DNA from: Escherichia phage ECML-363
Sequence record: OL631483.1
Length of the DNA: 64,000 nucleotides
Reading direction: 5' to 3' (one strand)
The notes under the pieces are model-generated. The model saw only the letters and a list, made by a program, of their open reading frames with translations. It made no database searches and was not told where the DNA came from. Of the stretch, positions 23,089-33,303 are shown piece after piece. Made by a program: the position numbers and the translations under genes. Positions within the stretch are counted from its first letter, which is position 1. The number at the start of each line of letters is the position of its first letter.

Positions 23089-23141
23089 CCTCATGTTATG
23101 TCAGTAAGACTACTATAACACAACACGAGGGACTTGTAAAC
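23089..23141 (-). promoter_or_regulatory. Early (sigma70-type) promoter plus leader cassette upstream of the alt.-3-like ORF
   Basis: Minus strand GTTTAC(-35), ~18 nt spacer, TATAGT(-10), then AACAUGAGGAAC leader with SD; near-identical copy at 38886-38939. Confidence 0.6.
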
Positions 23142-25198
23142 TACATTTTGAACTTTTTAGACATTCCGTTAATGTTAACCAAAGAAGCTAAGATTTGAGA
23201 AACTTCGTTTTCCTCTTCTTTTGATTCTTCTACAAGGAATTGATTAAATCCAGCCATTGGACGAACTTCACCAGTTTCCATTAGATGGTCGCCATCATAT
23301 ACTGATTCTTCTAATTGTTCAGAAGGAGGAACGATTGTACCTTCGATTAGATACTTGTTATAAGCAGTTTCTTTCATAAAGTAAGTACTTACTTTATTAA
23401 TCTTCAGTAAAATTCCACGTGGTAGAATAACTTCAGCTTCTGATGGAAATCCTGATAAATGACCCGGAACGATAACTTTAACTCGTTCAGCTCCTTTAAT
23501 TACCATACCCACGCTAGTTTCAGCATCTTCATTAGCATATGTAGAATGACTACCCATATGCATCAAATCTTCTGCATCAACGGAACCTTCTCCTTCACCA
23601 GAAAATACTGCTCCGGAATCATCTAAGGCCATATAATTTTTACCATACTCACCAAAGATATTTGGTTTAAGTGATGTCGATACGAAGTTCTTGAAATAGA
23701 ACATTTTATTTTCAATGTTATGACGCAAAGTTTTAAAAGTAACTTCTTGTCCACGGTAAAGTGTAGTTCCTGGAGGAAGAACTGAACCTTTAACGAATGC
23801 AGAATCAAGCGTCTCAATATGTTTAATAGCTCGTTCCATATATTCTTCACGGGTAGAATCTGGTTTACCCAAAAGGAACGAGTTCATTTCAACATATGAA
23901 TCTGCGCAATAATCTTCAATTACGTCAGATTCAGCCTGAGTTAATCCTTTTGGAGTTACTTCGGTGCTTGCATATTCATACGCCTGAGCAGCGGATTCAT
24001 CAATTAATTTATAAATGCCATTCATGACAAATTGAATAATAGCTGTCTTTTCATCTGGCGTAGCTTTAGAACCTTTAACTAAATCATTGACAATTTTCTT
24101 AATAACATCAAAGCTATTAGAAATATTAATGTCAGCAAGATCGCTTAAAATTTTATCAGTTTTGTAATTAAAGAAGTCTTTATTCTTTAAATATTCCTGG
24201 GAACCTTGATATGATGTATCGCTCTGCAACTTGATAGATGGATCGCGTAAACGTGCATGGGCTAATGCAATATGATTTCGGAAACTTTCTAGTTCATAAT
24301 CGCTAGATTTAAAACGAGAAGCACTTCTCATACCGCCGATAGCTCCTTTGCTAAAGTTTGAACCAATCTGAATAACGCCAGAGTTCATTGGTCCTTCTGC
24401 TTTATATACCGGAACTTTAGATTCAAACTCTTGATATTTCTTAGCAGCGAAGCTATCACCCTGAAGTGAAGCATCAACAGTAGAATATTGAGCTTGTGCT
24501 GCTAATCGACGACTAATTTTAGTTTTCTGAATAACAGCTTGATCCGTACGCTTATCATTTTCTAAAGCAATAGAAGCAGCAACTGCGACAGCTTTAGGAA
24601 CAGCATTACCTGTTTTAACGTCTACATAAACATCACCAACCTTTGATTCAACTTTTGTGAATAACTCAGTTGAAATAGGAGGTACACCTGGAATGTCTTC
24701 TAAATTGGCATTTTTACGGTAAACCATAATATATGCATATTTCTTATCATAGTCCCAGATTTCCTTTAAAAGAACATATCGACCTGCTCCTTTAGTACGT
24801 ACTAAACGGTCAGCAATAACTTGCATTTGACGAGCAGCGCCATTTGTTTTACTTTTTAGTACGCGGAATAGGCATGCATCAATTTTATACTGTTTCATTG
24901 TTTGAAGAGCAGTATCAAAAACCGCATTAATGACACCAATTGGATTTCCACCCAAGTTTTTAAGCTTGACTAATGATAATTTCTCGTTGACACCTATCAT
25001 TACGATATGCATCATTTTGTCGCCTGGCTTAACGTTTTTATTCGTATCACCGCCAGAGGTGTATGTACAAAATCGAAATCCAGGAAGAACGCTTTCTTCA
25101 CCGGCTTGAATAGCAAAAATTTGAGGTATTTTATGCTTAGGATTTAAGTTAACAACCGGCGCCGAAGCGCCGTCAAATAATTCTGTAATAAGTTCCAT
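23141..25198 (-). CDS. Alt-family ADP-ribosyltransferase paralog
   Basis: 685 aa; N-terminus MELITELFDG shared with the adjacent paralog; C-terminal R-S-E elements (YRGQ, STS, EAEVILPRG). Confidence 0.8.
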   Translation of the reverse strand: MELITELFDGASAPVVNLNPKHKIPQIFAIQAGEESVLPGFRFCTYTSGGDTNKNVKPGDKMMHIVMIGVNEKLSLVKLKNLGGNPIGVINAVFDTALQTMKQYKIDACLFRVLKSKTNGAARQMQVIADRLVRTKGAGRYVLLKEIWDYDKKYAYIMVYRKNANLEDIPGVPPISTELFTKVESKVGDVYVDVKTGNAVPKAVAVAASIALENDKRTDQAVIQKTKISRRLAAQAQYSTVDASLQGDSFAAKKYQEFESKVPVYKAEGPMNSGVIQIGSNFSKGAIGGMRSASRFKSSDYELESFRNHIALAHARLRDPSIKLQSDTSYQGSQEYLKNKDFFNYKTDKILSDLADINISNSFDVIKKIVNDLVKGSKATPDEKTAIIQFVMNGIYKLIDESAAQAYEYASTEVTPKGLTQAESDVIEDYCADSYVEMNSFLLGKPDSTREEYMERAIKHIETLDSAFVKGSVLPPGTTLYRGQEVTFKTLRHNIENKMFYFKNFVSTSLKPNIFGEYGKNYMALDDSGAVFSGEGEGSVDAEDLMHMGSHSTYANEDAETSVGMVIKGAERVKVIVPGHLSGFPSEAEVILPRGILLKINKVSTYFMKETAYNKYLIEGTIVPPSEQLEESVYDGDHLMETGEVRPMAGFNQFLVEESKEEENEVSQILASLVNINGMSKKFKM

Positions 25199-25201
25199 GA
25201 T

Positions 25202-27298
25202 TTATCCTTGAACGAACTTGTAAGGCATGTTTGTAATATCTATGCAAGACGCAATAATTCCAAGAGATGATTCTACTTTCTGTTTAATATTTGATGAAAC
25301 AAATGATGCAAAGTCAACTCTGTCTTCTATTTCAATATCACCTGTCATTGCAACCAATTCACCAGTTTCCATTAAATGGTCTCCATCATAGATTACCGAT
25401 TCGGTGAGCTCTTCCGTGGTCATAACTTCAGCTTGAATGAGTTTTGTATTATTAGATGTTGTTCCGTCATTATTAGAAGCATCAGTTATTTTATTAACCT
25501 TGACCATCAATCCGCGTGGTAGAATAACTTCAGCTTCTGTTGCTATTCCGAGACTTCCTGGATATACAACATTAACTTTATGAGCTCCATCAATTGCCCA
25601 TCCTATTTGAACTTTAACATATTCAGGATTTTCTTTATACGCTCTTATTTCGTTTGGATTAATAGTTATTCCTTCTTCATTTTTATCAACTGTTAATTCG
25701 TTACGAGCTTCTGGTTCTAAAAGACCAATACCAGCATGTGTGATTCCAAAACGTCCAAAAATGATAGGAGTTAAAGAAGTAGATACAAAATTTCTGAAGT
25801 AGAACACTTTATTTTTAACTAACGCTTCATATATAGGAGCAGTCATACTTTGAGCACGATAAACTGTAATGCCTTCTGGTATACGGTCACCATTTTCAAA
25901 AGCTGAATCTAAGTTATTTATAGCAGATTCAATTTCTTTTTCACTCATTACATCATATCGTTCTGGATTGTAACGACCTAAAAGAAGATTATTGATGTCA
26001 GTATATCCTGAACCGCAATATTCTCTAATGCCACGCTTTTGTGATGGAGTATATTTAGAACCATCGCGGGCAATAGTAATATCAATCATTGGACCAGCAC
26101 CAATTCCAGAAAAACTGTAAATCATTCGTTTGAGGAATTTAGTTTTTGCTGCGTTCCAGGAATTTTTAGTTATTTCTTCCCAGACTTCATCTGGTTGTCC
26201 TTTACGATTTTTATTATGATTAGCAAGCCATTTATCTTTATAATCTTCAAAGAATTGATTTACAGCTGCTGCGTATTTCTCTAAACATTTTATTGAAGTA
26301 GTTGGTTCATTTTTAATTGCATTAAAAATTACTTCTTTAATTTTTTCTGAAACTTCACCGACTTGACTCATTGGAAAGAATTTATAATCATAGTGAAGTT
26401 CATCTGCCGTTCCTTCAGCAATAATTTTTGCTGCCTTTGTTTTAGAAGCTAATGAATTAATTCCAATTTTCATTTCTTCTGCTTCGGGAATTAAAGGTGC
26501 AGTAGCTGGTTTATTAAAATTAGCTGCTGTAGATTCATACTTCTGGAATAATTCACTTTCAAATCTAGAAGATTCCAATGACTGACTTTGTGCAATTGCT
26601 CTACGGGAAATTTTAACTTTAACGATTACGGCTTGGTCAGAACGTTTATCATTTTCTTGTGCAATAGATGCAGCAATTGCCTCATTTTTGGTTACTTGAG
26701 CTCCAGTATCTTTATTGATATAAACATCACCGACCTTCGATTCAACTTTAGTAAAAAGCTCGGTGCTAATTTCTGGAACTCCTGGAATGTCTTCTAGTGA
26801 TACATTTTTACGATGTATAAGAATATATGCATACTTTTTATCGTAATCCCAGAGTTCCTTAAGAAGGACGTATCTGCCACCTGAACGACTGCGGATGAGT
26901 CTATCAGCAATAAGTTGAATTTGTCGAGCTTGACCGGCGGTTTTAGACTTAAGAATACGAAGCATGCAGGCATCAATTTTATATTGACGCATTGTTTGCA
27001 TTGCAACAGTAAAAACTGAATTGATATAATTAATCGGGCTTGGACCAAGACCTTTTAATTTAGCAATTGAACCTTTAGCAGTTAATGTAAAAGGAACAAT
27101 GTGCATCATTTTATCGCCCATCTTTAAATCACGATTAGTATCACCTCCAGATGTATAGGTACATAAACGAAAGCCTGGTTGTTCAATTGCATCATCAACA
27201 TGAACTGAAAAAATTTGTGGTATTTTCTTCTTTGGATTTAAGTTTGTAATCGGAAGAGTAGTATCTTCGTCAAATAATTCTGTAATGAGTTCCATCAT
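25202..27298 (-). CDS. alt: Alt ADP-ribosyltransferase (packaged internal protein)
   Basis: 698 aa; YRAQ, STS and EAEVILPRG motifs; adjacent to gene 30 as in T4; minus-strand late promoter upstream; the true start may be the second Met at 27295. Confidence 0.8.
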   Translation of the reverse strand: MMELITELFDEDTTLPITNLNPKKKIPQIFSVHVDDAIEQPGFRLCTYTSGGDTNRDLKMGDKMMHIVPFTLTAKGSIAKLKGLGPSPINYINSVFTVAMQTMRQYKIDACMLRILKSKTAGQARQIQLIADRLIRSRSGGRYVLLKELWDYDKKYAYILIHRKNVSLEDIPGVPEISTELFTKVESKVGDVYINKDTGAQVTKNEAIAASIAQENDKRSDQAVIVKVKISRRAIAQSQSLESSRFESELFQKYESTAANFNKPATAPLIPEAEEMKIGINSLASKTKAAKIIAEGTADELHYDYKFFPMSQVGEVSEKIKEVIFNAIKNEPTTSIKCLEKYAAAVNQFFEDYKDKWLANHNKNRKGQPDEVWEEITKNSWNAAKTKFLKRMIYSFSGIGAGPMIDITIARDGSKYTPSQKRGIREYCGSGYTDINNLLLGRYNPERYDVMSEKEIESAINNLDSAFENGDRIPEGITVYRAQSMTAPIYEALVKNKVFYFRNFVSTSLTPIIFGRFGITHAGIGLLEPEARNELTVDKNEEGITINPNEIRAYKENPEYVKVQIGWAIDGAHKVNVVYPGSLGIATEAEVILPRGLMVKVNKITDASNNDGTTSNNTKLIQAEVMTTEELTESVIYDGDHLMETGELVAMTGDIEIEDRVDFASFVSSNIKQKVESSLGIIASCIDITNMPYKFVQG

Positions 27299-27318
27299 AT
27301 CCTCTCTAGTGTTTATTC

Positions 27319-27326
27319 TATTTATA
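27319..27326 (-). promoter_or_regulatory. Late promoter (TATAAATA on minus strand) for alt
   Basis: TATTTATA on plus strand ~20 nt upstream of the alt start. Confidence 0.6.
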
Positions 27327-27331
27327 AAATT

Positions 27332-27349
27332 AAAGGCCCGAAGGCCTTT
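27332..27349. terminator. Palindromic hairpin between the gene 30 operon and alt
   Basis: AAAGGCC-CGAA-GGCCTTT. Confidence 0.45.
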
Positions 27350-27536
27350 AATAATCTATTGGTAATAGAGTACGATATATTTCAAACTTTGGACCTTTTT
27401 CATAAGCATCAAAAGTTTCTGTGAATTTATTATAAGCATATGCATCTATAAATTCAATCATGATTTGCGATACAGAAGTAGAAACATCTCCACCTTCTTT
27501 TTGAGCCACGACAATTGTTTCTAAGTAAGCTTTCAT
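27348..27536 (-). CDS. Hypothetical small protein
   Basis: 62 aa ORF whose start overlaps the gene 30 stop. Confidence 0.5.
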   Translation of the reverse strand: MKAYLETIVVAQKEGGDVSTSVSQIMIEFIDAYAYNKFTETFDAYEKGPKFEIYRTLLPIDY

Positions 27537-28996
27537 AAACCAGTTACCTCATGAAAATCGCCAAATACATCTTCGAACGTATTAGCTTTAGTTTTATCTT
27601 CACGTAAACGAATTGCAATTGGAAGAAATAGCTTAACGTAATCAGTACGTCCATCTAATTTTACCCAGCCGTTGCATTCGCACTCTAGAATTTTTCCAAT
27701 ATAATAATTTTGGTTTTCCATAATGCGAGTACGATCAAGTTCATGCGATTTTATACCGGCTTTATCTTTTAAGCCTGAACCAGCATTTACTTTAATTTTT
27801 CCACACTCTGATTCAAGAATGAAACCACCTGCTTTAGTAGGGTCTTTACGGTGAGGATAAATTCCTACAATTTTTAAATCAACATCAATTACTTCTTTAA
27901 ATTTATAAAGATTTTTTGAACGAGCATTTTCCCATAATCCATCGATATTTTTGAGAATAATACCTTCAAGACCTTGGTCAATATACTTTTTATAAATTAC
28001 CTTAGCTTCATCTAGGTTATTTACTATCTGGTTTTCAATTAAAATTACTTTATCATAGCCTGATGTCATTTGTTCTAGTTTAGAAAAACGTACATCATAT
28101 TTTAAACGAAATGCTGGAAGACCATATATTTCTACTAATGGAACATAGTCCCAGACCTGAAACTTCATGCATTGTGCTTCTTTTTCAGAAATGGTTCCCT
28201 TTAAAGATTTATTAGCGATTCCATTAGAAGTAGTACGTGATTCAGCTACTTCGGCGAATTCTTTAGCTTTACTAATTTCAGGATAAGCATCAAAAAGAAA
28301 ATCTAGGCCTTCTGGTTCCTTTTCAACTTGCTCATGGTATACCAATTCGCCATCAATTAACACACCTTCTGGATGAATCTGGCGAGCTTCTGCAGTCATT
28401 TTGATTAACTCTTCCTTGAGAAGATCTAATCCTAGATATTCATTACCAGCTCGTGATAAAAGACGAACATCATCTAATTCATCACCTCTGACTTCAGCAA
28501 AGCACCGAGCTCCATCAGCTTTTAACTGGGCAAAAGCTGGAAATTTGATATTCTTATTAATGCCTTTTTCATCATAAGAACTTGCCAGCATTTGAGGTTG
28601 TTCAGGAATTAAACCTGGCCAAACTTTGTTTGCAATAGATACTGATGCACCACATTCAAGGTCTCGCATCATCACCCGACGCAAAACTTCAACATCATCT
28701 TTTTTACCGTCAGCAATATATCCAGTTAATTCCTCAATTGCCGCATTTCCGGTCAATTTCCGAGTAGCTAACGTGAATTCAATGAAGTCAAGCATATCGG
28801 TAAGAGTCAACATTCCAAAACTCTGGGTAGTAATACCCGGTTTAGGCCATTTCTTGATATAATACTGTAACCCACGAGAATAAGTCAGACGATATACTCG
28901 TTTAAGCAATTCATTATCTTTATTCTTTTCAAGAATTGCTTGCTTCTGCTTAGTTGAACCAATAGATGCTATTTCGTTCAGAATTTTAAGAATCAT
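27533..28996 (-). CDS. 30: ATP-dependent DNA ligase gp30
   Basis: 487 aa (T4 ligase length); active-site lysine motif KADGAR; N-terminus MILKILNEIASIGSTKQKQ. Confidence 0.95.
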   Translation of the reverse strand: MILKILNEIASIGSTKQKQAILEKNKDNELLKRVYRLTYSRGLQYYIKKWPKPGITTQSFGMLTLTDMLDFIEFTLATRKLTGNAAIEELTGYIADGKKDDVEVLRRVMMRDLECGASVSIANKVWPGLIPEQPQMLASSYDEKGINKNIKFPAFAQLKADGARCFAEVRGDELDDVRLLSRAGNEYLGLDLLKEELIKMTAEARQIHPEGVLIDGELVYHEQVEKEPEGLDFLFDAYPEISKAKEFAEVAESRTTSNGIANKSLKGTISEKEAQCMKFQVWDYVPLVEIYGLPAFRLKYDVRFSKLEQMTSGYDKVILIENQIVNNLDEAKVIYKKYIDQGLEGIILKNIDGLWENARSKNLYKFKEVIDVDLKIVGIYPHRKDPTKAGGFILESECGKIKVNAGSGLKDKAGIKSHELDRTRIMENQNYYIGKILECECNGWVKLDGRTDYVKLFLPIAIRLREDKTKANTFEDVFGDFHEVTGL

Positions 28997-29262
28997 TGTT
29001 CATCCTTTAGAGTTTGGTTTACAGCTCTATTATAAATCAATTCATCATTAAGCTCAGTCAAAGACCTGTGGTACGTGGTTCTAACTTTATTTCCTTGCAT
29101 CCAGTGCTTGACGTAAATGAAACCTTGCTCTACACATTTTTTAAAAATTCGTTCGTCTTTTTGAGCTCGGAATTCTGGATTGCATCTAAAAAATTGATTT
29201 ACGTGACCGTAATCACGTGTAGTATTACCTTCATTTTCATAAATAGTGTGAACAACAAACAT
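28993..29262 (-). CDS. Hypothetical protein (T4 30.1 position)
   Basis: 89 aa ORF, translationally coupled in the 30.x operon. Confidence 0.55.
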   Translation of the reverse strand: MFVVHTIYENEGNTTRDYGHVNQFFRCNPEFRAQKDERIFKKCVEQGFIYVKHWMQGNKVRTTYHRSLTELNDELIYNRAVNQTLKDEQ

Positions 29263-30098
29263 TAGAATGCTCCTTGGAAAATATTATCACCGCTAGTAGG
29301 TCTATTATACAAATACTCTATGCCACCAGGTTTAATATAGTTCCATGTCTGAAACGGATGCGTCTGATATGGATGATATAGATTATAAGGATTAAATCCA
29401 GGAGTTCTCCAGGTAGTGTTCCAAGGAAAAGAATCGTTTTTAATCATCTTTTCAATTACATCTTTTACAGCTTTTTCACTATCAAAACTTTCTTTATTTT
29501 CCTTCGATGGAAAAAGCTTATTCTCTACATCATTCCATGTATAAACTCGCTGTGCAGTTTTTGGAATACTGTCACGCTCCCCTCGAGCCATCCAATAAAC
29601 AGGAACATTTAATATTTCACTTGCATGATCGCAGTGGTGAGCGAGATCGTCAATATAACAAATTACGTTATATTTCTCTTTTGCCTTTTTGAACAACTCT
29701 TCTTTTGAAGAATCATGACCACACATCAATACTTCTGAGAAGGCACCAGGAAAAAGAGCATTCAAATTAAATTGACGATTCAGCAGAGCGTCAATAGAAT
29801 CACCCAATGCTGTAACAGCTACAAAATTATAATCTTCTTTTAATTTGTTAATTACACATAGGGCATCTTTATATGGAGACAAATAGCGAATAAAATCTGA
29901 ACGATTATACTTTTCGATTAATTTAACACCAAGTTCTTCATCGCAATTAAAGAGCTTACCAGGAGAAATAAATTTTTCGTCCTGAATCATTTTTAAAATA
30001 TGTTCCAACGGAAGATTATATTTTTGGGCAAAATAAGGAAGGCCCGATTGCCAGCTTAAACACACCCCGTCAATATCAGTCAAAATAGTAGGCTTCAT
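29262..30098 (-). CDS. HAD-superfamily hydrolase-like protein (T4 30.2 position)
   Basis: 278 aa; N-terminal DIDGV (HAD motif I) and a downstream YIDD acidic motif. Confidence 0.6.
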   Translation of the reverse strand: MKPTILTDIDGVCLSWQSGLPYFAQKYNLPLEHILKMIQDEKFISPGKLFNCDEELGVKLIEKYNRSDFIRYLSPYKDALCVINKLKEDYNFVAVTALGDSIDALLNRQFNLNALFPGAFSEVLMCGHDSSKEELFKKAKEKYNVICYIDDLAHHCDHASEILNVPVYWMARGERDSIPKTAQRVYTWNDVENKLFPSKENKESFDSEKAVKDVIEKMIKNDSFPWNTTWRTPGFNPYNLYHPYQTHPFQTWNYIKPGGIEYLYNRPTSGDNIFQGAF

Positions 30099-30559
30099 AG
30101 AGAGTCTCTTAATAGGTTTAACACATCAATAAATTCAGCTTCGGTTAGTATTGTATCATCTTTTGTTAGACTACTAGCCATGCTGTGCTTCAAAACTTTT
30201 CCTTTCGAGGCTAGTAATGCATCACGAAAGCCCTTGTTTTGAATCGCTGCCTCAAAATACGCATTTGTGTATAATTCTTTCCACGCTGGAGAGTATCTTG
30301 AAAACGGAACTCCGAGCCAGAAGAGGGTCCCACGGTCCTGAGCTCTAGCATAAGACCTTCCAGCTTGTTGGGCGGCAAGCCCGGATAACCCAAATACACG
30401 ACGTTGCTGTTCAACATTTTTCACCTTACATCCTTGGAGAAATCCTTCAAGACCTCCAAATTGGATACCATTCATAACAAAAGGCCATTGGGCGAAATTA
30501 CTTAATGCACACGATGGCCATCTAAAATTGCTTCTAATCTCTAACTCAGGCATTTTCAA
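30095..30559 (-). CDS. NADAR (YbiA-like, DUF1768) domain protein (T4 30.3 position)
   Basis: 154 aa; LSNFAQWPFVMNGIQFGGLEGFLQGCK resembles the YbiA/NADAR core FSNFAAWP...EHYFQAQK. Confidence 0.6.
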   Translation of the reverse strand: MKMPELEIRSNFRWPSCALSNFAQWPFVMNGIQFGGLEGFLQGCKVKNVEQQRRVFGLSGLAAQQAGRSYARAQDRGTLFWLGVPFSRYSPAWKELYTNAYFEAAIQNKGFRDALLASKGKVLKHSMASSLTKDDTILTEAEFIDVLNLLRDSL

Positions 30560-30752
30560 TACTTATAATTTCAACATCAGCCCAATGACCATAGCAAGGA
30601 AGACGAAATTCAACTGGCCAGTTAGGGTCCTTTTCTAATATAATAGACTTAACTTGTGGTTCTTCATGTTCATCAGTATATGGATTTTTATCTGTTACTT
30701 TATATGTGACCTTAATGTACTGAATTCCAAAAATCTTATTAATTATATTCAT
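30546..30752 (-). CDS. Hypothetical protein (30.4 position)
   Basis: 68 aa ORF in operon context. Confidence 0.5.
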   Translation of the reverse strand: MNIINKIFGIQYIKVTYKVTDKNPYTDEHEEPQVKSIILEKDPNWPVEFRLPCYGHWADVEIISIENA

Positions 30753-30946
30753 ACTAATTCCTTTAATCCGTAAATAGGAGATAATTCATCACCCATACGA
30801 AGGTCTTCATTTCCATCTACCCAGGAAACAATATAAGCCTCTTTTATTTGAACACCACTCCATTTAAATGGAGGTAGAACCTTAGAAATTAATCCAGGTA
30901 TACCAACTCCCTTTAATTCAACAGTTTGACCTAAAAAGAATTTCAT
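30749..30946 (-). CDS. Hypothetical protein (30.5 position)
   Basis: 65 aa ORF, start/stop coupled with neighbours. Confidence 0.5.
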   Translation of the reverse strand: MKFFLGQTVELKGVGIPGLISKVLPPFKWSGVQIKEAYIVSWVDGNEDLRMGDELSPIYGLKELV

Positions 30947-31233
30947 CAGAACCTCATCTGAAAGCCGTGTGATTTAACATTACCGCCGCCAATATCAGAA
31001 ATATTAATTTCACGCGCAATTGAAGGGTCAATGTCAATTTCACGATTAAGTTTAGCGATAGCTAAAGTATCACGCCCATTTACTGTACGGAATTCTAAAG
31101 GACAAACCACATCAACATAATTTTTAATTGATTCACTGGTAGGTTGCAAATGAGCAGGAAGGTCTTTAGGCGCCTTAGAGAAAACCACTTCACAGAAATT
31201 TTTGCGGGTGTCAAAATAAGTAGTCATAAACAT
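30946..31233 (-). CDS. Hypothetical protein (30.6 position)
   Basis: 95 aa ORF. Confidence 0.55.
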   Translation of the reverse strand: MFMTTYFDTRKNFCEVVFSKAPKDLPAHLQPTSESIKNYVDVVCPLEFRTVNGRDTLAIAKLNREIDIDPSIAREINISDIGGGNVKSHGFQMRF

Positions 31234-31250
31234 AGTATTTTCCTTAGTAA

Positions 31251-31264
31251 GGGGCCGAAGCCCC
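31251..31264. terminator. GC-rich hairpin between 30.7-like and 30.6-like ORFs
   Basis: GGGGC-CGAA-GCCCC; T-tract only on the plus side, so role is unclear. Confidence 0.35.
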
Positions 31265-31274
31265 TCATTTTATT

Positions 31275-31640
31275 TTAAATATCAAATTCGTTAAGAACTA
31301 CATCAAAGATTGCTTCAAGATGCTCAGGTTTAGCTCTGTTACTCAGAATATGACGAATCCAAGTTTTAACCAGAAGCTTGCGATTAGCGCCATTCCAGCA
31401 AGGATGGGTCCCTAAATCGCGTTGACGAAAATCATCATCCAGAGCGATTTTGAAGTTTGAACCTTCCATTGTGATTGAAACCGTGATGCCATTTTCAAAT
31501 CGCATATAAACGTAGTTAGGAGTCATATACTGTTCAATTTCGCATACTGATCCATTTTGATGTTTCCAAAGGCAAATAGTATCAATAGAACCTGCAATAC
31601 CATTAGAAACATATTTACGTTCAAAGTTGATGTAGTTCAT
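31275..31640 (-). CDS. Hypothetical protein (30.7 position)
   Basis: 121 aa ORF. Confidence 0.55.
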   Translation of the reverse strand: MNYINFERKYVSNGIAGSIDTICLWKHQNGSVCEIEQYMTPNYVYMRFENGITVSITMEGSNFKIALDDDFRQRDLGTHPCWNGANRKLLVKTWIRHILSNRAKPEHLEAIFDVVLNEFDI

Positions 31641-31708
31641 TTTTATTCTCCGAGATGTTTAATTGCGGTACAGGTATATAATATCATATCCTGTACCAAA
31701 GTAAACAA

Positions 31709-32041
31709 TTATTTTACTACTTTCCAGTGCTTCATGTCAAGTTTACCAACTTTTTTCATCTTCTCAATCAAACGTTCGGCACGTTGGCGAGCTGTAACAT
31801 AATACCATTCGCCTAATTCATTTTGTTCAATTTTTCCAACGATTACTGTATTCAATTCATAAATCCAACCAGTAAAGAAATTATGAACTTGAATTGTAAA
31901 GGTGAAATCTGTTCCCATACCTTCTGTTGTTTCTACTTCAATAATATCACCTTCAATTGCCATTAAGAACCACATAGTTTCATCATATTTACCATTGAAG
32001 CATTTAGTCTTAACTGCAGCGTTCAGATTAATCGTTTTCAT
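31709..32041 (-). CDS. Hypothetical protein (30.8 position)
   Basis: 110 aa ORF with AAGGAG RBS. Confidence 0.55.
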   Translation of the reverse strand: MKTINLNAAVKTKCFNGKYDETMWFLMAIEGDIIEVETTEGMGTDFTFTIQVHNFFTGWIYELNTVIVGKIEQNELGEWYYVTARQRAERLIEKMKKVGKLDMKHWKVVK

Positions 32042-32111
32042 TTTATTCTCCTTTGTTTGTGTAAGATAATACTATCACAAAGGAACCATACTGTAAACAA
32101 CTTTATGCAAT

Positions 32112-32148
32112 CTTTGGAAAATAAAAAAGGACTCCCGAAGGAGTCCTT
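32112..32148 (-). terminator. Intrinsic terminator downstream of the 30.9-like ORF
   Basis: Minus-strand GGACUCC-UUCG-GGAGUCC followed by UUUUUUUAUUUU. Confidence 0.7.
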
Positions 32149-32151
32149 AAC

Positions 32152-32370
32152 TTATGCTTTCTGCTTACCAAAACGAGAAGCATCATCTCGAAGAACCGCA
32201 CGTGCTCGGCGCATGATCTTCTCAACAGTTTGATTGATACGAGAGTTCGACCCACGCTTGTAGCCAGCGCGTTTAGAATCACCAACTTTCTTTTCAACTG
32301 CTTTCTTTGCTTTAGCTTGTTTTGCCATTATAAATTCTCTTTTAAATGAAAATGCAGGACTTATTGGCAT
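32152..32370 (-). CDS. Small lysine-rich basic protein (30.9 position)
   Basis: 72 aa (or 58 aa from the internal Met at 32328); followed by a strong intrinsic terminator. Confidence 0.5.
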   Translation of the reverse strand: MPISPAFSFKREFIMAKQAKAKKAVEKKVGDSKRAGYKRGSNSRINQTVEKIMRRARAVLRDDASRFGKQKA

Positions 32371-32571
32371 TGCCTGCGCAAGCCCTCAAGGGGAACATAG
32401 GTTTTGGATATTTAACGACAGGATAACCATAAACCCGTCATCATTCACATTCAAGAGGTACACCATAAAACTGCCGGGGTCTTAAAACTATAATGATTCG
32501 CAAATCATTAATCAGACAGTTCGATGGCTCCTCGATTTTAGCTCACACTAAGGCAGTGAATCTCCAATAAA

Positions 32572-32820
32572 TTACTTCAATGTTACCACAAAGTGACGAA
32601 CTGCTTTTCGCGCAGCAGAAGCCAGAGGCTTAGCATACTTAAGTTCATCTTTTTCCTGAAGCTCAGCAGCTAATGCAGTTTGAGCAGGATTTAGATGTTT
32701 GAAATAACGCAGGATTTCAAGAGCTTCGGCTTCAACATCAATAGATGCGCCATAGTTTTCGTGACCATTATTCCATGCGTTTCGTTGCAGTTCAAGAGCG
32801 TGTTGTAATTGTTTAATCAT
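32572..32820 (-). CDS. rIII: Probable RIII lysis-inhibition accessory protein
   Basis: 82 aa (T4 RIII length); nine ORFs lie between it and gene 30, matching T4 30.1-30.9; sequence identity not independently confirmed. Confidence 0.55.
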   Translation of the reverse strand: MIKQLQHALELQRNAWNNGHENYGASIDVEAEALEILRYFKHLNPAQTALAAELQEKDELKYAKPLASAARKAVRHFVVTLK

Positions 32821-32967
32821 TTAAAAATTCTCGTTAGAGATTAAAACTCGGTAGTCACGTTCTTCTGAATTTCATCTTCTTTCGACAGATCTCTCAGTTG
32901 TAGACTACCACATAGAATTGTTCGGTTAACTTATTATTCCGACACCCAATTCATATTATTATTTATA

Positions 32968-33303
32968 TCACTTATAAAGACACGGAATAGCTTTATAGTG
33001 ACAAGTAACGAATTTTTGTTTAATTTCTTTTGGCTGCTTAAGACCCAGAGCTACAAAAGGATGCGGAACATTTCGAATTTGACCAACTGGAAGAGAAGTC
33101 AAATCACCAACTTCGCAGAAACCTTCAGGAACATCAGGACCAACAGAGTGAACTACACACAGTTCAGGAACTTCACCTTGAACACGTTTACCGATAATAA
33201 GTCCTGATTCTGTAACTTCTTCATCACCGGCTTGTGCAGGTTCAGAAACTAAAATAACATATTCACCGACAGCACGAATTGGTAGCTGTTGTACTTCAGA
33301 CAT
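32968..33303 (-). CDS. 31: Co-chaperonin gp31 (GroES analogue)
   Basis: 111 aa (T4 gp31 length), synteny. Confidence 0.88.

What the first reader, a model, noticed from the sequence alone, without database searches (positions are those of the whole stretch)
29262..30559. NADAR-like and HAD-like hydrolase genes next to DNA ligase, in a genome with two ADP-ribosyltransferases
The 154 aa ORF has a YbiA/NADAR-like core (LSNFAQWPF...GGLEGFLQGCK). NADAR domains are known to process ADP-ribose and, in some systems, to remove ADP-ribose from DNA bases. The adjacent 278 aa ORF begins with the HAD motif DIDGV. Together with ligase this could be a DNA end or modification repair module, possibly a counter to DNA-ADP-ribosylating defence toxins. 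That role is inference.
Basis: inference. Interest (0 to 1): 0.45.

Follow-up and report, generated by a model that had tools for sequence, protein, structure and literature searches.

The report
T4 AdfN and a neighbouring phosphatase
These are the phage T4 genes 30.3 and 30.2: the first is the already published enzyme AdfN, which strips ADP-ribose off phage DNA to defeat the bacterial DarTG1 defence, and the second is an uncharacterised nucleotidase-like phosphatase that published screen data show is not needed for that job.

Summary
The window is a T4-like phage (Tequatrovirus), and the two ORFs are genes 30.3 and 30.2, lying upstream of 30.1 and the DNA ligase gene 30.

Gene 30.3 has the NADAR fold. 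Its three best PDB matches are the three solved NADAR structures. It is 96% identical to T4 gp30.3, and the catalytic residues E36, K43 and H123 are intact. T4 gp30.3 was published in 2024-2025 as AdfN, a guanine-ADP-ribose DNA glycohydrolase that is necessary and sufficient against DarTG1.

Gene 30.2 is a capped HAD phosphatase with all four catalytic motifs, and it links to the NT5C 5'(3')-deoxyribonucleotidase family. It carries a disordered, variable C-terminal tail, and its substrate is unknown.

The proposed three-gene module is not supported:
- In a published T4 transposon screen on DarTG1, insertions in 30.3 are lost (log2FC -7.25), while 30.2 (-0.12) and 30.1 (-0.01) are unaffected.
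- AdfN-like genes often sit far from 30.2 and ligase.

What is conserved is the 30.2-ligase pair, found in 72 of 78 viral loci. That may simply reflect inherited gene order. Overall this is ordinary and already explained; only the role of 30.2 remains open.

The parts
30095..30553 (-). It is a NADAR-superfamily guanine-ADP-ribose DNA glycohydrolase. Catalytic codons: E36 at 30448..30446, K43 at 30427..30425, H123 at 30187..30185.
   Evidence: Pfam PF08010, E = 1.4e-69. 146/152 residues identical to T4 gp30.3. AlphaFold model pLDDT 94. The top three Foldseek PDB hits are YbiA 2b3w, PnNADAR with ADP-ribose 8bau, and G. lovleyi NADAR 8bat. E36 and H123 are invariant and K43 is at least 90% conserved across 53 homologs. 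Function comes from PMC11825919 and PMC11125620.
29505..30098 (-). Gene 30.2, residues 1-198: capped (C1) HAD phosphatase core of the NT5C / 5'(3')-deoxyribonucleotidase type. Motif I is D8 (30077..30075) and D10 (30071..30069), motif II is T96, motif III is K132, motif IV is D150-D151.
   Evidence: Invariant columns in 46 homologs. Model core pLDDT above 90, with a helical cap between strand 1 and strand 2. 94 PDB fold matches at E <= 1e-3, HAD-type as far as listed; cdN/mdN give rmsd 4.7-5.0 and TMt 0.63-0.67. The family profile's best PDB hit is 2jao, E = 0.05. Distant family members pass the Pfam NT5C cut-off. 270/278 residues identical to T4 gp30.2.
29262..29504 (-). Gene 30.2, residues 199-278 plus the stop codon: predicted disordered tail rich in aromatic residues, Pro and Asn, with a recurrent GIEYLxxQPT motif near the end. 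It is variable or absent in many homologs.
   Evidence: pLDDT below 50 over residues 223-278. Alignment A2 shows tail variability. 58 of 100 homologs have a tail of at least 40 aa, and 14 of those carry the motif.
28993..29262 (-). Gene 30.1 (89 aa, DUF3045), lying between 30.2 and ligase. Function unknown.
   Evidence: Pfam PF11243, E = 2.9e-64. Annotated as 30.1 in RB51 and T4. No phenotype on DarTG1. One metagenomic protein, P0015, fuses the 30.2 core to DUF3045.
27533..28996 (-). Gene 30, ATP-dependent DNA ligase (487 aa). It is an essential gene and the constant downstream neighbour of 30.2.
   Evidence: Pfam PF01068, E = 1.9e-32. 72 of 78 viral loci with a 30.2 homolog have ligase just downstream on the same strand. 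Essential in the T4 HIDEN-SEQ data.
30546..30752 (-). Gene 30.4 (68 aa, unknown function). Its last 8 nt overlap the adfN start codon.
   Evidence: ORF list and sequence. phrog_2042, unknown function. Moderately depleted on DarTG1 in T4 (log2FC -1.79, adjusted p = 0.014), most simply explained as a polar effect on adfN.

Best explanation
The region holds two functionally separate early genes of a T4-like phage. They are neighbours because of inherited gene order.

(1) Gene 30.3 is AdfN. When the host toxin DarT1 ADP-ribosylates guanines in phage DNA and blocks replication, AdfN cuts the N-glycosidic bond between ADP-ribose and guanine. It uses the NADAR active site (E36 and K43 of the EGFLQxxK motif, plus H123 in the last strand) and so restores replicable DNA. 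It does not act on thymidine-ADP-ribose, the DarT2 product. This is shown experimentally for the T4 protein. It is inferred here from 96% identity with intact catalytic residues and full length.

(2) Gene 30.2 is a capped HAD phosphatase of the NT5C (5'(3')-deoxyribonucleotidase) type. It most likely removes the phosphate from a nucleoside monophosphate or a similar small phospho-metabolite through an aspartyl-phosphate intermediate on D8, with D10 as the acid/base. The substrate and physiological role are inferred, not shown. Its variable disordered tail may dock it onto a partner.

Gene 30.2 is dispensable for AdfN's anti-DarTG1 function.
For: AdfN identity:
- Pfam Phage_30_3.
- 96% identity to T4 AdfN.
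- The NADAR fold is the only significant fold match.
- The family profile's best PDB hit is YbiA.
- Catalytic residues are conserved.

AdfN function (literature):
- PMC11825919: deletion sensitises T4 and T2 to DarTG1, ectopic expression rescues RB69, E36A and K43A impair the protein, and purified protein removes ADPr from DNA.
- PMC11125620: active on guanine-ADPr, not on thymidine-ADPr.
- HIDEN-SEQ: log2FC -7.25 on DarTG1.

30.2 identity:
- All four HAD motifs are invariant or nearly so.
- Confident HAD core with a helical C1 cap.
- HAD and deoxyribonucleotidase fold matches in the PDB and among viral models.
- NT5C link through family members and distant representatives.

Independence of the two genes:
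- 30.2 and 30.1 are neutral on DarTG1.
- 30.2 is non-essential and neutral in M9.
- AdfN is unlinked from 30.2 and ligase in most distant loci.
Against: - This phage's own AdfN allele has not been tested. Six substitutions separate it from T4 (P2S, N28D, V53I, L114Q, M125I, S128G; window residue first, T4 residue second).
- For 30.2, no Pfam or NCBIfam model reaches its threshold on the window protein itself. The NT5C link is transitive, and no biochemical data were found.
- AdfN, 30.2, 30.1 and ligase are translationally coupled here. AdfN sits directly upstream of 30.2 in 37 of 78 loci, so a subtle or condition-specific cooperation is not excluded.
- A pooled screen on one plasmid-borne DarTG1 system in K-12 cannot exclude a role against other DarT variants.
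- AdfN(T4) needs an unidentified T-even factor for full activity.
Confidence: 0.82

Rival explanations
1. AdfN, gp30.2 and DNA ligase act together as one repair module. NADAR removes ADP-ribose from DNA, the HAD enzyme processes the released product or a damaged end, and ligase seals the strand.
For: The genes lie in the same orientation with overlapping start and stop codons. The order AdfN-30.2-ligase is kept in Straboviridae down to about 40-45% identity. AdfN(T4) needs an unknown T-even factor for full activity.
Against: Insertions in 30.2 and 30.1 are neutral on DarTG1, while 30.3 insertions are lost. NADAR hydrolysis leaves an intact base and backbone, so no nick is created that would need healing or sealing (mechanism as described in PMC11543638 and PMC11825919). 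About 60 of 80 AdfN-like loci lack 30.2 and ligase nearby. In many T4-like genomes AdfN lies about 58 kb from 30.2 and ligase, for example OR753410.1. Only 37 of 78 loci with 30.2 have AdfN nearby.
Confidence: 0.05
2. gp30.2 is a DNA 3'-phosphatase, an end-healing enzyme like the HAD domain of polynucleotide kinase-phosphatase, that prepares nicks for the ligase encoded just downstream.
For: 30.2 lies directly upstream of ligase in 72 of 78 viral loci. There is a weak match to the PHROG polynucleotide kinase family (phrog_415, E = 0.004). Phage PNKP phosphatase domains appear among the viral fold matches.
Against: The model has a four-to-six-helix C1 cap inserted after motif I (residues 16-86). 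From established knowledge of HAD families, C1-capped members enclose small substrates, whereas macromolecule-directed members such as the T4 Pnk phosphatase domain lack a cap. The closest families by sequence and fold are the deoxyribonucleotidases. The phage already encodes PseT. Conserved synteny within one virus family can be inheritance alone.
Confidence: 0.1
3. gp30.2 is a catalytically dead HAD-fold adaptor whose function lies in its C-terminal tail.
For: No phenotype in any screened condition. The tail carries a recurrent short motif.
Against: D8, D10, K132, D150 and D151 are invariant, and T96 is at least 90% conserved, across homologs down to about 34% identity. That pattern is expected only under selection for catalysis. 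About 40% of homologs lack the tail.
Confidence: 0.03

Closest known systems
AdfN (T4 gp30.3), anti-DarT factor NADAR (Johannesman et al., Nat Commun 2025, PMC11825919)
   Same: Orthologous gene in the same genomic position. 146 of 152 residues are identical, the length is the same, the catalytic residues E36 and K43 and the phage-specific H123 are present, and the C-terminal helix that RB69 lacks is intact.
   Different: Six substitutions (P2S, N28D, V53I, L114Q, M125I, S128G; window residue first, T4 residue second), none at a known catalytic position. This allele has not been tested.
DarG1 / DarT1-associated NADAR antitoxin (Geobacter lovleyi NADAR, PDB 8bat) and the other solved NADARs, E. 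coli YbiA (2b3w) and PnNADAR (8bau)
   Same: Same fold, the same EGF.Q..K active-site motif, and the same chemistry on guanine-ADP-ribose according to the literature.
   Different: About 16-18% sequence identity. No N-terminal extension. His replaces Asp (DarG1/BC4488 type) or Glu (YbiA type) in the last strand. It is an orphan gene with no DarT partner. The T4 protein does not rescue DarT1 toxicity in uninfected E. coli.
NT5C family (Pfam PF06941): cytosolic and mitochondrial 5'(3')-deoxyribonucleotidases cdN and mdN (PDB 2jao, 2i7d, 1q92)
   Same: HAD core with a C1 helical cap. DxDGV motif I is followed by an aromatic residue and then SGL: W16-Q-S18-G-L in 30.2 against F-E-S-G-L in cdN. The TxL, K and DD motifs fall in the same order. 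These are the best PDB matches by rmsd and by target-normalised TM-score.
   Different: Only about 15-17% identity. The window protein itself does not reach the Pfam cut-off. It has an extra 80-residue disordered tail. The substrate is unknown.
T4 PseT (polynucleotide kinase / 3'-phosphatase), HAD phosphatase domain
   Same: A DxD-type HAD phosphatase encoded by the same phage, with weak profile and fold similarity.
   Different: The PseT phosphatase domain is uncapped and acts on nucleic-acid ends (established knowledge). 30.2 has a C1 cap and no kinase domain.

Membership tests
NADAR superfamily (gp30.3 / AdfN subgroup) | [quoted passage not shown] | tested here: met
   The model has pLDDT 94. 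Its only fold matches with high Foldseek probability (0.96-1.00) are the three solved NADARs; YbiA alone reaches E <= 0.001 (3.6e-5; TMq 0.69). The fold definition is quoted in PMC11125620 and PMC9503650.
NADAR superfamily (gp30.3 / AdfN subgroup) | Catalytic Glu and Lys of the E-G-F-x-Q-x-x-K motif (E36 and K43 in T4 numbering) | tested here: met
   E36 is invariant and K43 is at least 90% conserved in 53 homologs. Both are present in the window protein. The motif aligns with the equivalent YbiA segment.
NADAR superfamily (gp30.3 / AdfN subgroup) | [quoted passage not shown] | tested here: met
   H123 is invariant in alignment A1. The subgroup rule is stated in PMC11125620 and PMC11825919.
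NADAR superfamily (gp30.3 / AdfN subgroup) | Full-length C-terminal helix (its loss in RB69 gives DarTG1 sensitivity) | tested here: met
   152 aa with helix 138-151 in the model. The C-terminus is identical to T4's.
NADAR superfamily (gp30.3 / AdfN subgroup) | Hydrolysis of guanine-linked ADP-ribose on DNA, and protection from DarTG1 | not testable with these tools
   Shown for the T4 ortholog only. Inferred here from 96% identity.
HAD superfamily phosphatases | Four catalytic motifs: I DxD, II T/S, III K, IV DD | tested here: met
   D8, D10, K132, D150 and D151 are invariant, and T96 is at least 90% conserved, in 46 homologs.
HAD superfamily phosphatases | Rossmann-like HAD core fold | tested here: met
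   Core pLDDT above 90. 94 PDB matches at E <= 1e-3, HAD-type as far as listed. 84 viral-model matches at E <= 1e-3; the named ones are mostly nucleotidases, HAD hydrolases and PNKP phosphatase domains.
HAD superfamily phosphatases | Pfam HAD models at the curated threshold | tested here: not met
   The window protein has no Pfam hit at E <= 0.1. 12 of 46 family members give sub-threshold PF00702 hits, the best at 3.5e-4. This reflects model sensitivity and does not contradict the assignment.
NT5C (PF06941) 5'(3')-deoxyribonucleotidase family | Sequence membership at Pfam's gathering score | tested here: inconclusive
   The window protein gives no hit. 10 of 46 close homologs give weak hits, the best at 1.2e-4. 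Distant representatives found by the 30.2 profile at E of about 1e-21 to 1e-25 (P0290, P0310, P0330) pass the cut-off over the whole domain, scoring 26-37 bits against 24.8. The link is therefore transitive.
NT5C (PF06941) 5'(3')-deoxyribonucleotidase family | C1 helical cap and an aromatic residue after motif I that lines the nucleoside pocket | tested here: met
   Helices at residues 16-86 lie between strands 1 and 2. The invariant W16 aligns with the Phe of DFESGL in cdN. The role of that Phe in base binding is recalled from the cdN/mdN structural literature and was not checked here.
NT5C (PF06941) 5'(3')-deoxyribonucleotidase family | dNMP/NMP phosphatase activity | not testable with these tools
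   No biochemical report on gp30.2 was found.
DarTG-type toxin-antitoxin operon | A NADAR or macrodomain antitoxin encoded next to a DarT ADP-ribosyltransferase toxin | tested here: not met
   No DarT gene is adjacent. The neighbours are 30.4 and 30.2. The nearby ARTs are Alt paralogs (PF03496), which are protein-targeting virion enzymes. AdfN is an orphan antitoxin-like gene, as published.

The most novel reading that the evidence does not exclude
The one part not yet explained is gp30.2. It is a catalytically intact NT5C-type phosphatase fixed directly upstream of DNA ligase across Straboviridae (72 of 78 loci). In a subgroup it carries a disordered tail with a conserved GIEYLxxQPT docking motif.

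The most novel reading still open is that gp30.2 is a dedicated partner of the ligase or replication machinery, or a counter-measure to a nucleotide-based host defence that has not yet been screened. In either case it would be more than a housekeeping nucleotidase.

A second open thread concerns gene 30.4, which overlaps the adfN start and is partly depleted on DarTG1. It could be the unidentified T-even factor that AdfN needs, and not merely a polar effect.
Probability: 0.15. Interest if true: 0.45.

Novelty: already known. Interest (0 to 1): 0.12.

Why it matters
For the NADAR gene, nothing new is at stake. Its fold, chemistry and anti-DarTG1 role were published in 2023-2025, and this phage carries an ordinary full-length allele. 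The practical value lies in annotation. Gene 30.3 in this genome, and in the many GenBank records where it is still called 'hypothetical protein', can be named AdfN. Gene 30.2 can be named an NT5C-like HAD phosphatase. If gp30.2 turned out to have a specific role with ligase or against a defence system, that would assign a function to one more of the roughly 100 uncharacterised T4 genes. That would be a modest advance.

Tried and rejected
Searches that returned little:
- Pfam and NCBIfam on gp30.2 gave nothing usable. The weak thiamine-diphosphokinase hits were treated as noise.
- Single-sequence PDB searches gave nothing significant for either protein.
- Profile-against-PDB searches gave only marginal hits, though they pointed the right way: YbiA at E = 0.015 and cdN at E = 0.05.
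- The promoter and terminator scan of 27000-33000 found no more sites than in shuffled sequence (24 against 23.0 ± 5.6). It therefore does not define the transcription unit; it shows only that there is no terminator-like site on the minus strand between 32127 and 27000.
- A literature search for gp30.2 found no functional study.

Ideas considered and rejected:
- gp30.2 as the unknown T-even factor that potentiates AdfN. Rejected because 30.2 insertions are neutral on DarTG1.
- AdfN-ligase linkage as evidence of a functional link. Rejected because AdfN moves around the genome while 30.2 and ligase stay together.
- A link between AdfN and the phage's own Alt ADP-ribosyltransferases. There is no evidence for it: alt is neutral on DarTG1, and the adjacency of early NADAR and ART genes was already noted in PMC9503650.
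- The cis-epoxysuccinate hydrolase and dehalogenase top fold hits as functional models. Rejected because 30.2 has the second Asp (DxD) typical of phosphatases, and because those alignments are poor (rmsd about 9).
Full report
**What is there.** The window is a Tequatrovirus. The 1.9-kb stretch around the finding is 99.0% identical to Shigella phage ESh28 and 98.4% identical to RB51 and RB14. On the minus strand, in order of transcription, lie:
- 30.4 (30546..30752)
- 30.3 (30095..30553)
- 30.2 (29262..30098)
- 30.1 (28993..29262)
- gene 30, DNA ligase (27533..28996)
- alt.1
- two tandem alt paralogs (25202..27298 and 23141..25198)

Successive genes overlap. The end of 30.4 overlaps the 30.3 ATG by 8 nt. 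The 30.3 stop and the 30.2 start share ATGA. The 30.2/30.1 junction overlaps by 1 nt and the 30.1/30 junction by 4 nt.

**Gene 30.3.** Pfam assigns it to its own family, Phage_30_3 (PF08010, E = 1.4e-69), not to NADAR. I therefore tested the NADAR claim independently.
- I aligned 53 homologs that range down to about 35% identity. In this alignment P13, A16-L-S-N-F20, E36-G-F38, Q40, H123, T134, L136-T137, E140-F141 and other positions are invariant, and K43 is at least 90% conserved.
- A profile built from the alignment finds E. coli YbiA as its best PDB sequence match (E = 0.015), aligned over the LSNF...E..F.Q..K segment.
- The AlphaFold model is confident (pLDDT 94.2).
- Its only credible fold matches are the three solved NADAR structures: YbiA 2b3w (E = 3.6e-5, TMq 0.69), Phytophthora NADAR with ADP-ribose 8bau, and the Geobacter lovleyi DarT1-associated NADAR 8bat. 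Every other hit has a probability of 0.05 or less.

**This is already published.** Johannesman et al. (Nat Commun 2025, PMC11825919) renamed T4 gene 30.3 adfN. They showed the following:
- Deleting it makes T4 and T2 unable to plaque on DarTG1 hosts.
- Ectopic expression rescues RB69, whose own allele is frameshifted and lacks the last 15 residues.
- The E36A and K43A mutants are impaired.
- Purified protein removes ADP-ribose from DarT1-modified DNA.
- It does not counter DarTG2.

Two other studies agree. Toxins 2024 (PMC11125620) showed independently that gp30.3 hydrolyses guanine-ADPr but not thymidine-ADPr. It also showed that phage NADARs carry a His where YbiA has Glu and DarG1-type NADARs have Asp. 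A T4 transposon screen (HIDEN-SEQ preprint, 10.1101/2025.11.20.689424) again found 30.3/adfN conditionally essential on DarTG1.

The window protein is 146/152 identical to T4 AdfN. It is full length, with E36, K43 and H123 intact. It is therefore an ordinary, presumably active AdfN allele. Its activity is inferred from the T4 data and was not tested.

**Gene 30.2.** No Pfam or NCBIfam model reaches significance on the window protein, and PHROGs lists its family as unknown. Other evidence establishes what it is.
- The model has a confident core (residues 1-198, pLDDT mostly above 90) with a helical insertion between strands 1 and 2, which is a C1 cap. Residues from about 199 to 278 are predicted to be disordered.
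- Foldseek returns 94 PDB matches at E <= 1e-3, HAD-type as far as listed. The 5'(3')-deoxyribonucleotidases cdN and mdN fit best by rmsd (4.7-5.0 Å) and by target-normalised TM-score (0.63-0.67).
- Viral model matches include phage proteins annotated as 5'-nucleotidases.
- The family profile's best PDB sequence hit is cdN (2jao, E = 0.05), with W16-x-S18-G-L aligned to F-E-S-G-L.
- Ten of 46 members give weak NT5C hits.
- An exhaustive profile search finds 1383 representatives. Distant ones (P0290, P0310, P0330) pass Pfam's curated NT5C threshold over the full domain.

I therefore call gp30.2 a capped HAD phosphatase of the NT5C type. The DxD motif argues for phosphoryl transfer and against dehalogenase or epoxide-hydrolase chemistry. 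From established knowledge of the HAD superfamily, the C1 cap argues for a small substrate such as a nucleoside monophosphate and against a DNA end. The actual substrate is unknown.

The tail varies between phages, and about 40% of homologs lack it. A subgroup shares a GIEYLxxQPT motif near the C-terminus.

**Is there a NADAR-HAD-ligase module?** I tested this in two ways.

*Gene neighbourhoods.* Of 80 viral contigs with an AdfN-like gene, only about 20 have 30.2 or ligase within 4 kb. Of 78 contigs with a 30.2 homolog, 72 have ligase immediately downstream on the same strand, and 37 have AdfN nearby. The same genomes often carry AdfN about 55-60 kb away from 30.2 and ligase. In Enterobacter phage vB_EclM_AS6, for example, AdfN lies at 72.6 kb and 30.2 at 130.8 kb. 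The constant unit is therefore 30.2 plus ligase, and AdfN is a movable neighbour. Because all of these phages belong to one family, the conserved 30.2-ligase order may be inheritance and nothing more.

*Published genetics.* In the HIDEN-SEQ DarTG1 sheet, insertions in 30.3 fall from a mean of 261.0 to 0.7 (log2FC -7.25, adjusted p = 0). Insertions in 30.2 are neutral (271.5 to 249.8, log2FC -0.12, p = 0.61), as are 30.1 (-0.01) and alt (-0.01). Gene 30.2 is also non-essential on K-12, with insertions at 72 of 72 sites, and neutral in the LB-versus-M9 comparison (-0.10). In addition, NADAR chemistry restores an intact guanine without breaking the backbone, so no end-healing or sealing step is needed. 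The module idea is therefore not supported.

**Verdict.** That role is already experimentally established, and the proposed cooperation with the HAD protein and ligase is contradicted by the available data. Two things remain open: the substrate and role of gp30.2, and the identity of the T-even factor that AdfN(T4) needs for full activity. Gene 30.2 is not a good candidate for that factor. Gene 30.4 shows a moderate depletion on DarTG1 (log2FC -1.79, adjusted p = 0.014), which is most simply a polar effect because it overlaps the adfN start, but it deserves a clean test.

Noticed in passing
window 23141..25198 and 25202..27298 (minus strand): Two tandem Alt-type ADP-ribosyltransferase paralogs (685 and 698 aa), as in RB51. 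T4 itself has a single alt gene at this position. The N-terminal thirds are similar and the central regions diverge.
   Followed up: partly
window 30546..30752 (gene 30.4): In the published T4 HIDEN-SEQ DarTG1 screen, 30.4 insertions are moderately depleted (log2FC -1.79, adjusted p = 0.014). The gene overlaps the adfN start by 8 nt, so polarity is the simplest reading. It could also be a candidate for the unidentified T-even factor that AdfN needs.
   Followed up: partly
proteins P0107, P0113-P0117, P0156, P0197; loci L005/L006 and hits H38-H42: Many natural T4-like phages carry truncated AdfN genes, or AdfN fused to fragments of neighbouring genes (Pfam domains of 30.7, 30.8 and others on the same product). 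Another group matches only residues 1-144. This suggests frequent deletion or frameshift of adfN in nature, like the RB69 allele.
   Followed up: no
protein P0015 (302 aa): One metagenomic homolog fuses the 30.2 HAD core directly to a DUF3045 (gene 30.1) domain in place of the disordered tail. This is a possible hint that 30.2 and 30.1 act together. It is a single 1.4-kb contig, so it could be an assembly or frameshift artefact.
   Followed up: no
window 29265..29504 (gp30.2 residues 199-278): Disordered tail rich in aromatic residues, Pro and Asn, with two recurrent short motifs: W[RK]xPG, and GIEYLxxQPT near the C-terminus. The second is conserved in phages whose core is only 45-55% identical. 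It looks like a docking peptide for an unknown partner.
   Followed up: partly
window 30211..30417 (minus strand, alternative frame inside adfN): A 68-aa ORF corresponding to the T4 annotation 30.3' ('internal translation in a different reading frame'). No evidence was gathered on whether it is expressed.
   Followed up: no
L022/L096, L062/L102, L067/L110, L074/L114 (same contigs); GenBank OR753410.1: In Klebsiella, Enterobacter, Edwardsiella and Cronobacter T4-like phages the AdfN-like gene lies about 55-60 kb away from the 30.2-ligase pair. The gene has therefore been relocated or acquired separately within Straboviridae.
   Followed up: partly
proteins P0258 (591 aa), P0313 (660 aa), P0210 (430 aa), P0249 (365 aa): A few distant relatives of the 30.2 HAD core are fused to long extra regions with no Pfam match. 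Their domain partners might hint at the family's substrate.
   Followed up: no
window 32148..32127 and 31740..31711 (minus strand): A strong terminator-like hairpin (9 pairs followed by a T-run) lies at 32148..32127, just downstream of the end (32152) of the 72-aa ORF at 32152..32370. The best sigma-70-like site of the region (TTGACA-18-TAAAAT) lies at 31740..31711, upstream of 30.7. No terminator-like site follows on this strand down to ligase. The overall number of promoter-like sites is no higher than in shuffled sequence.
   Followed up: no
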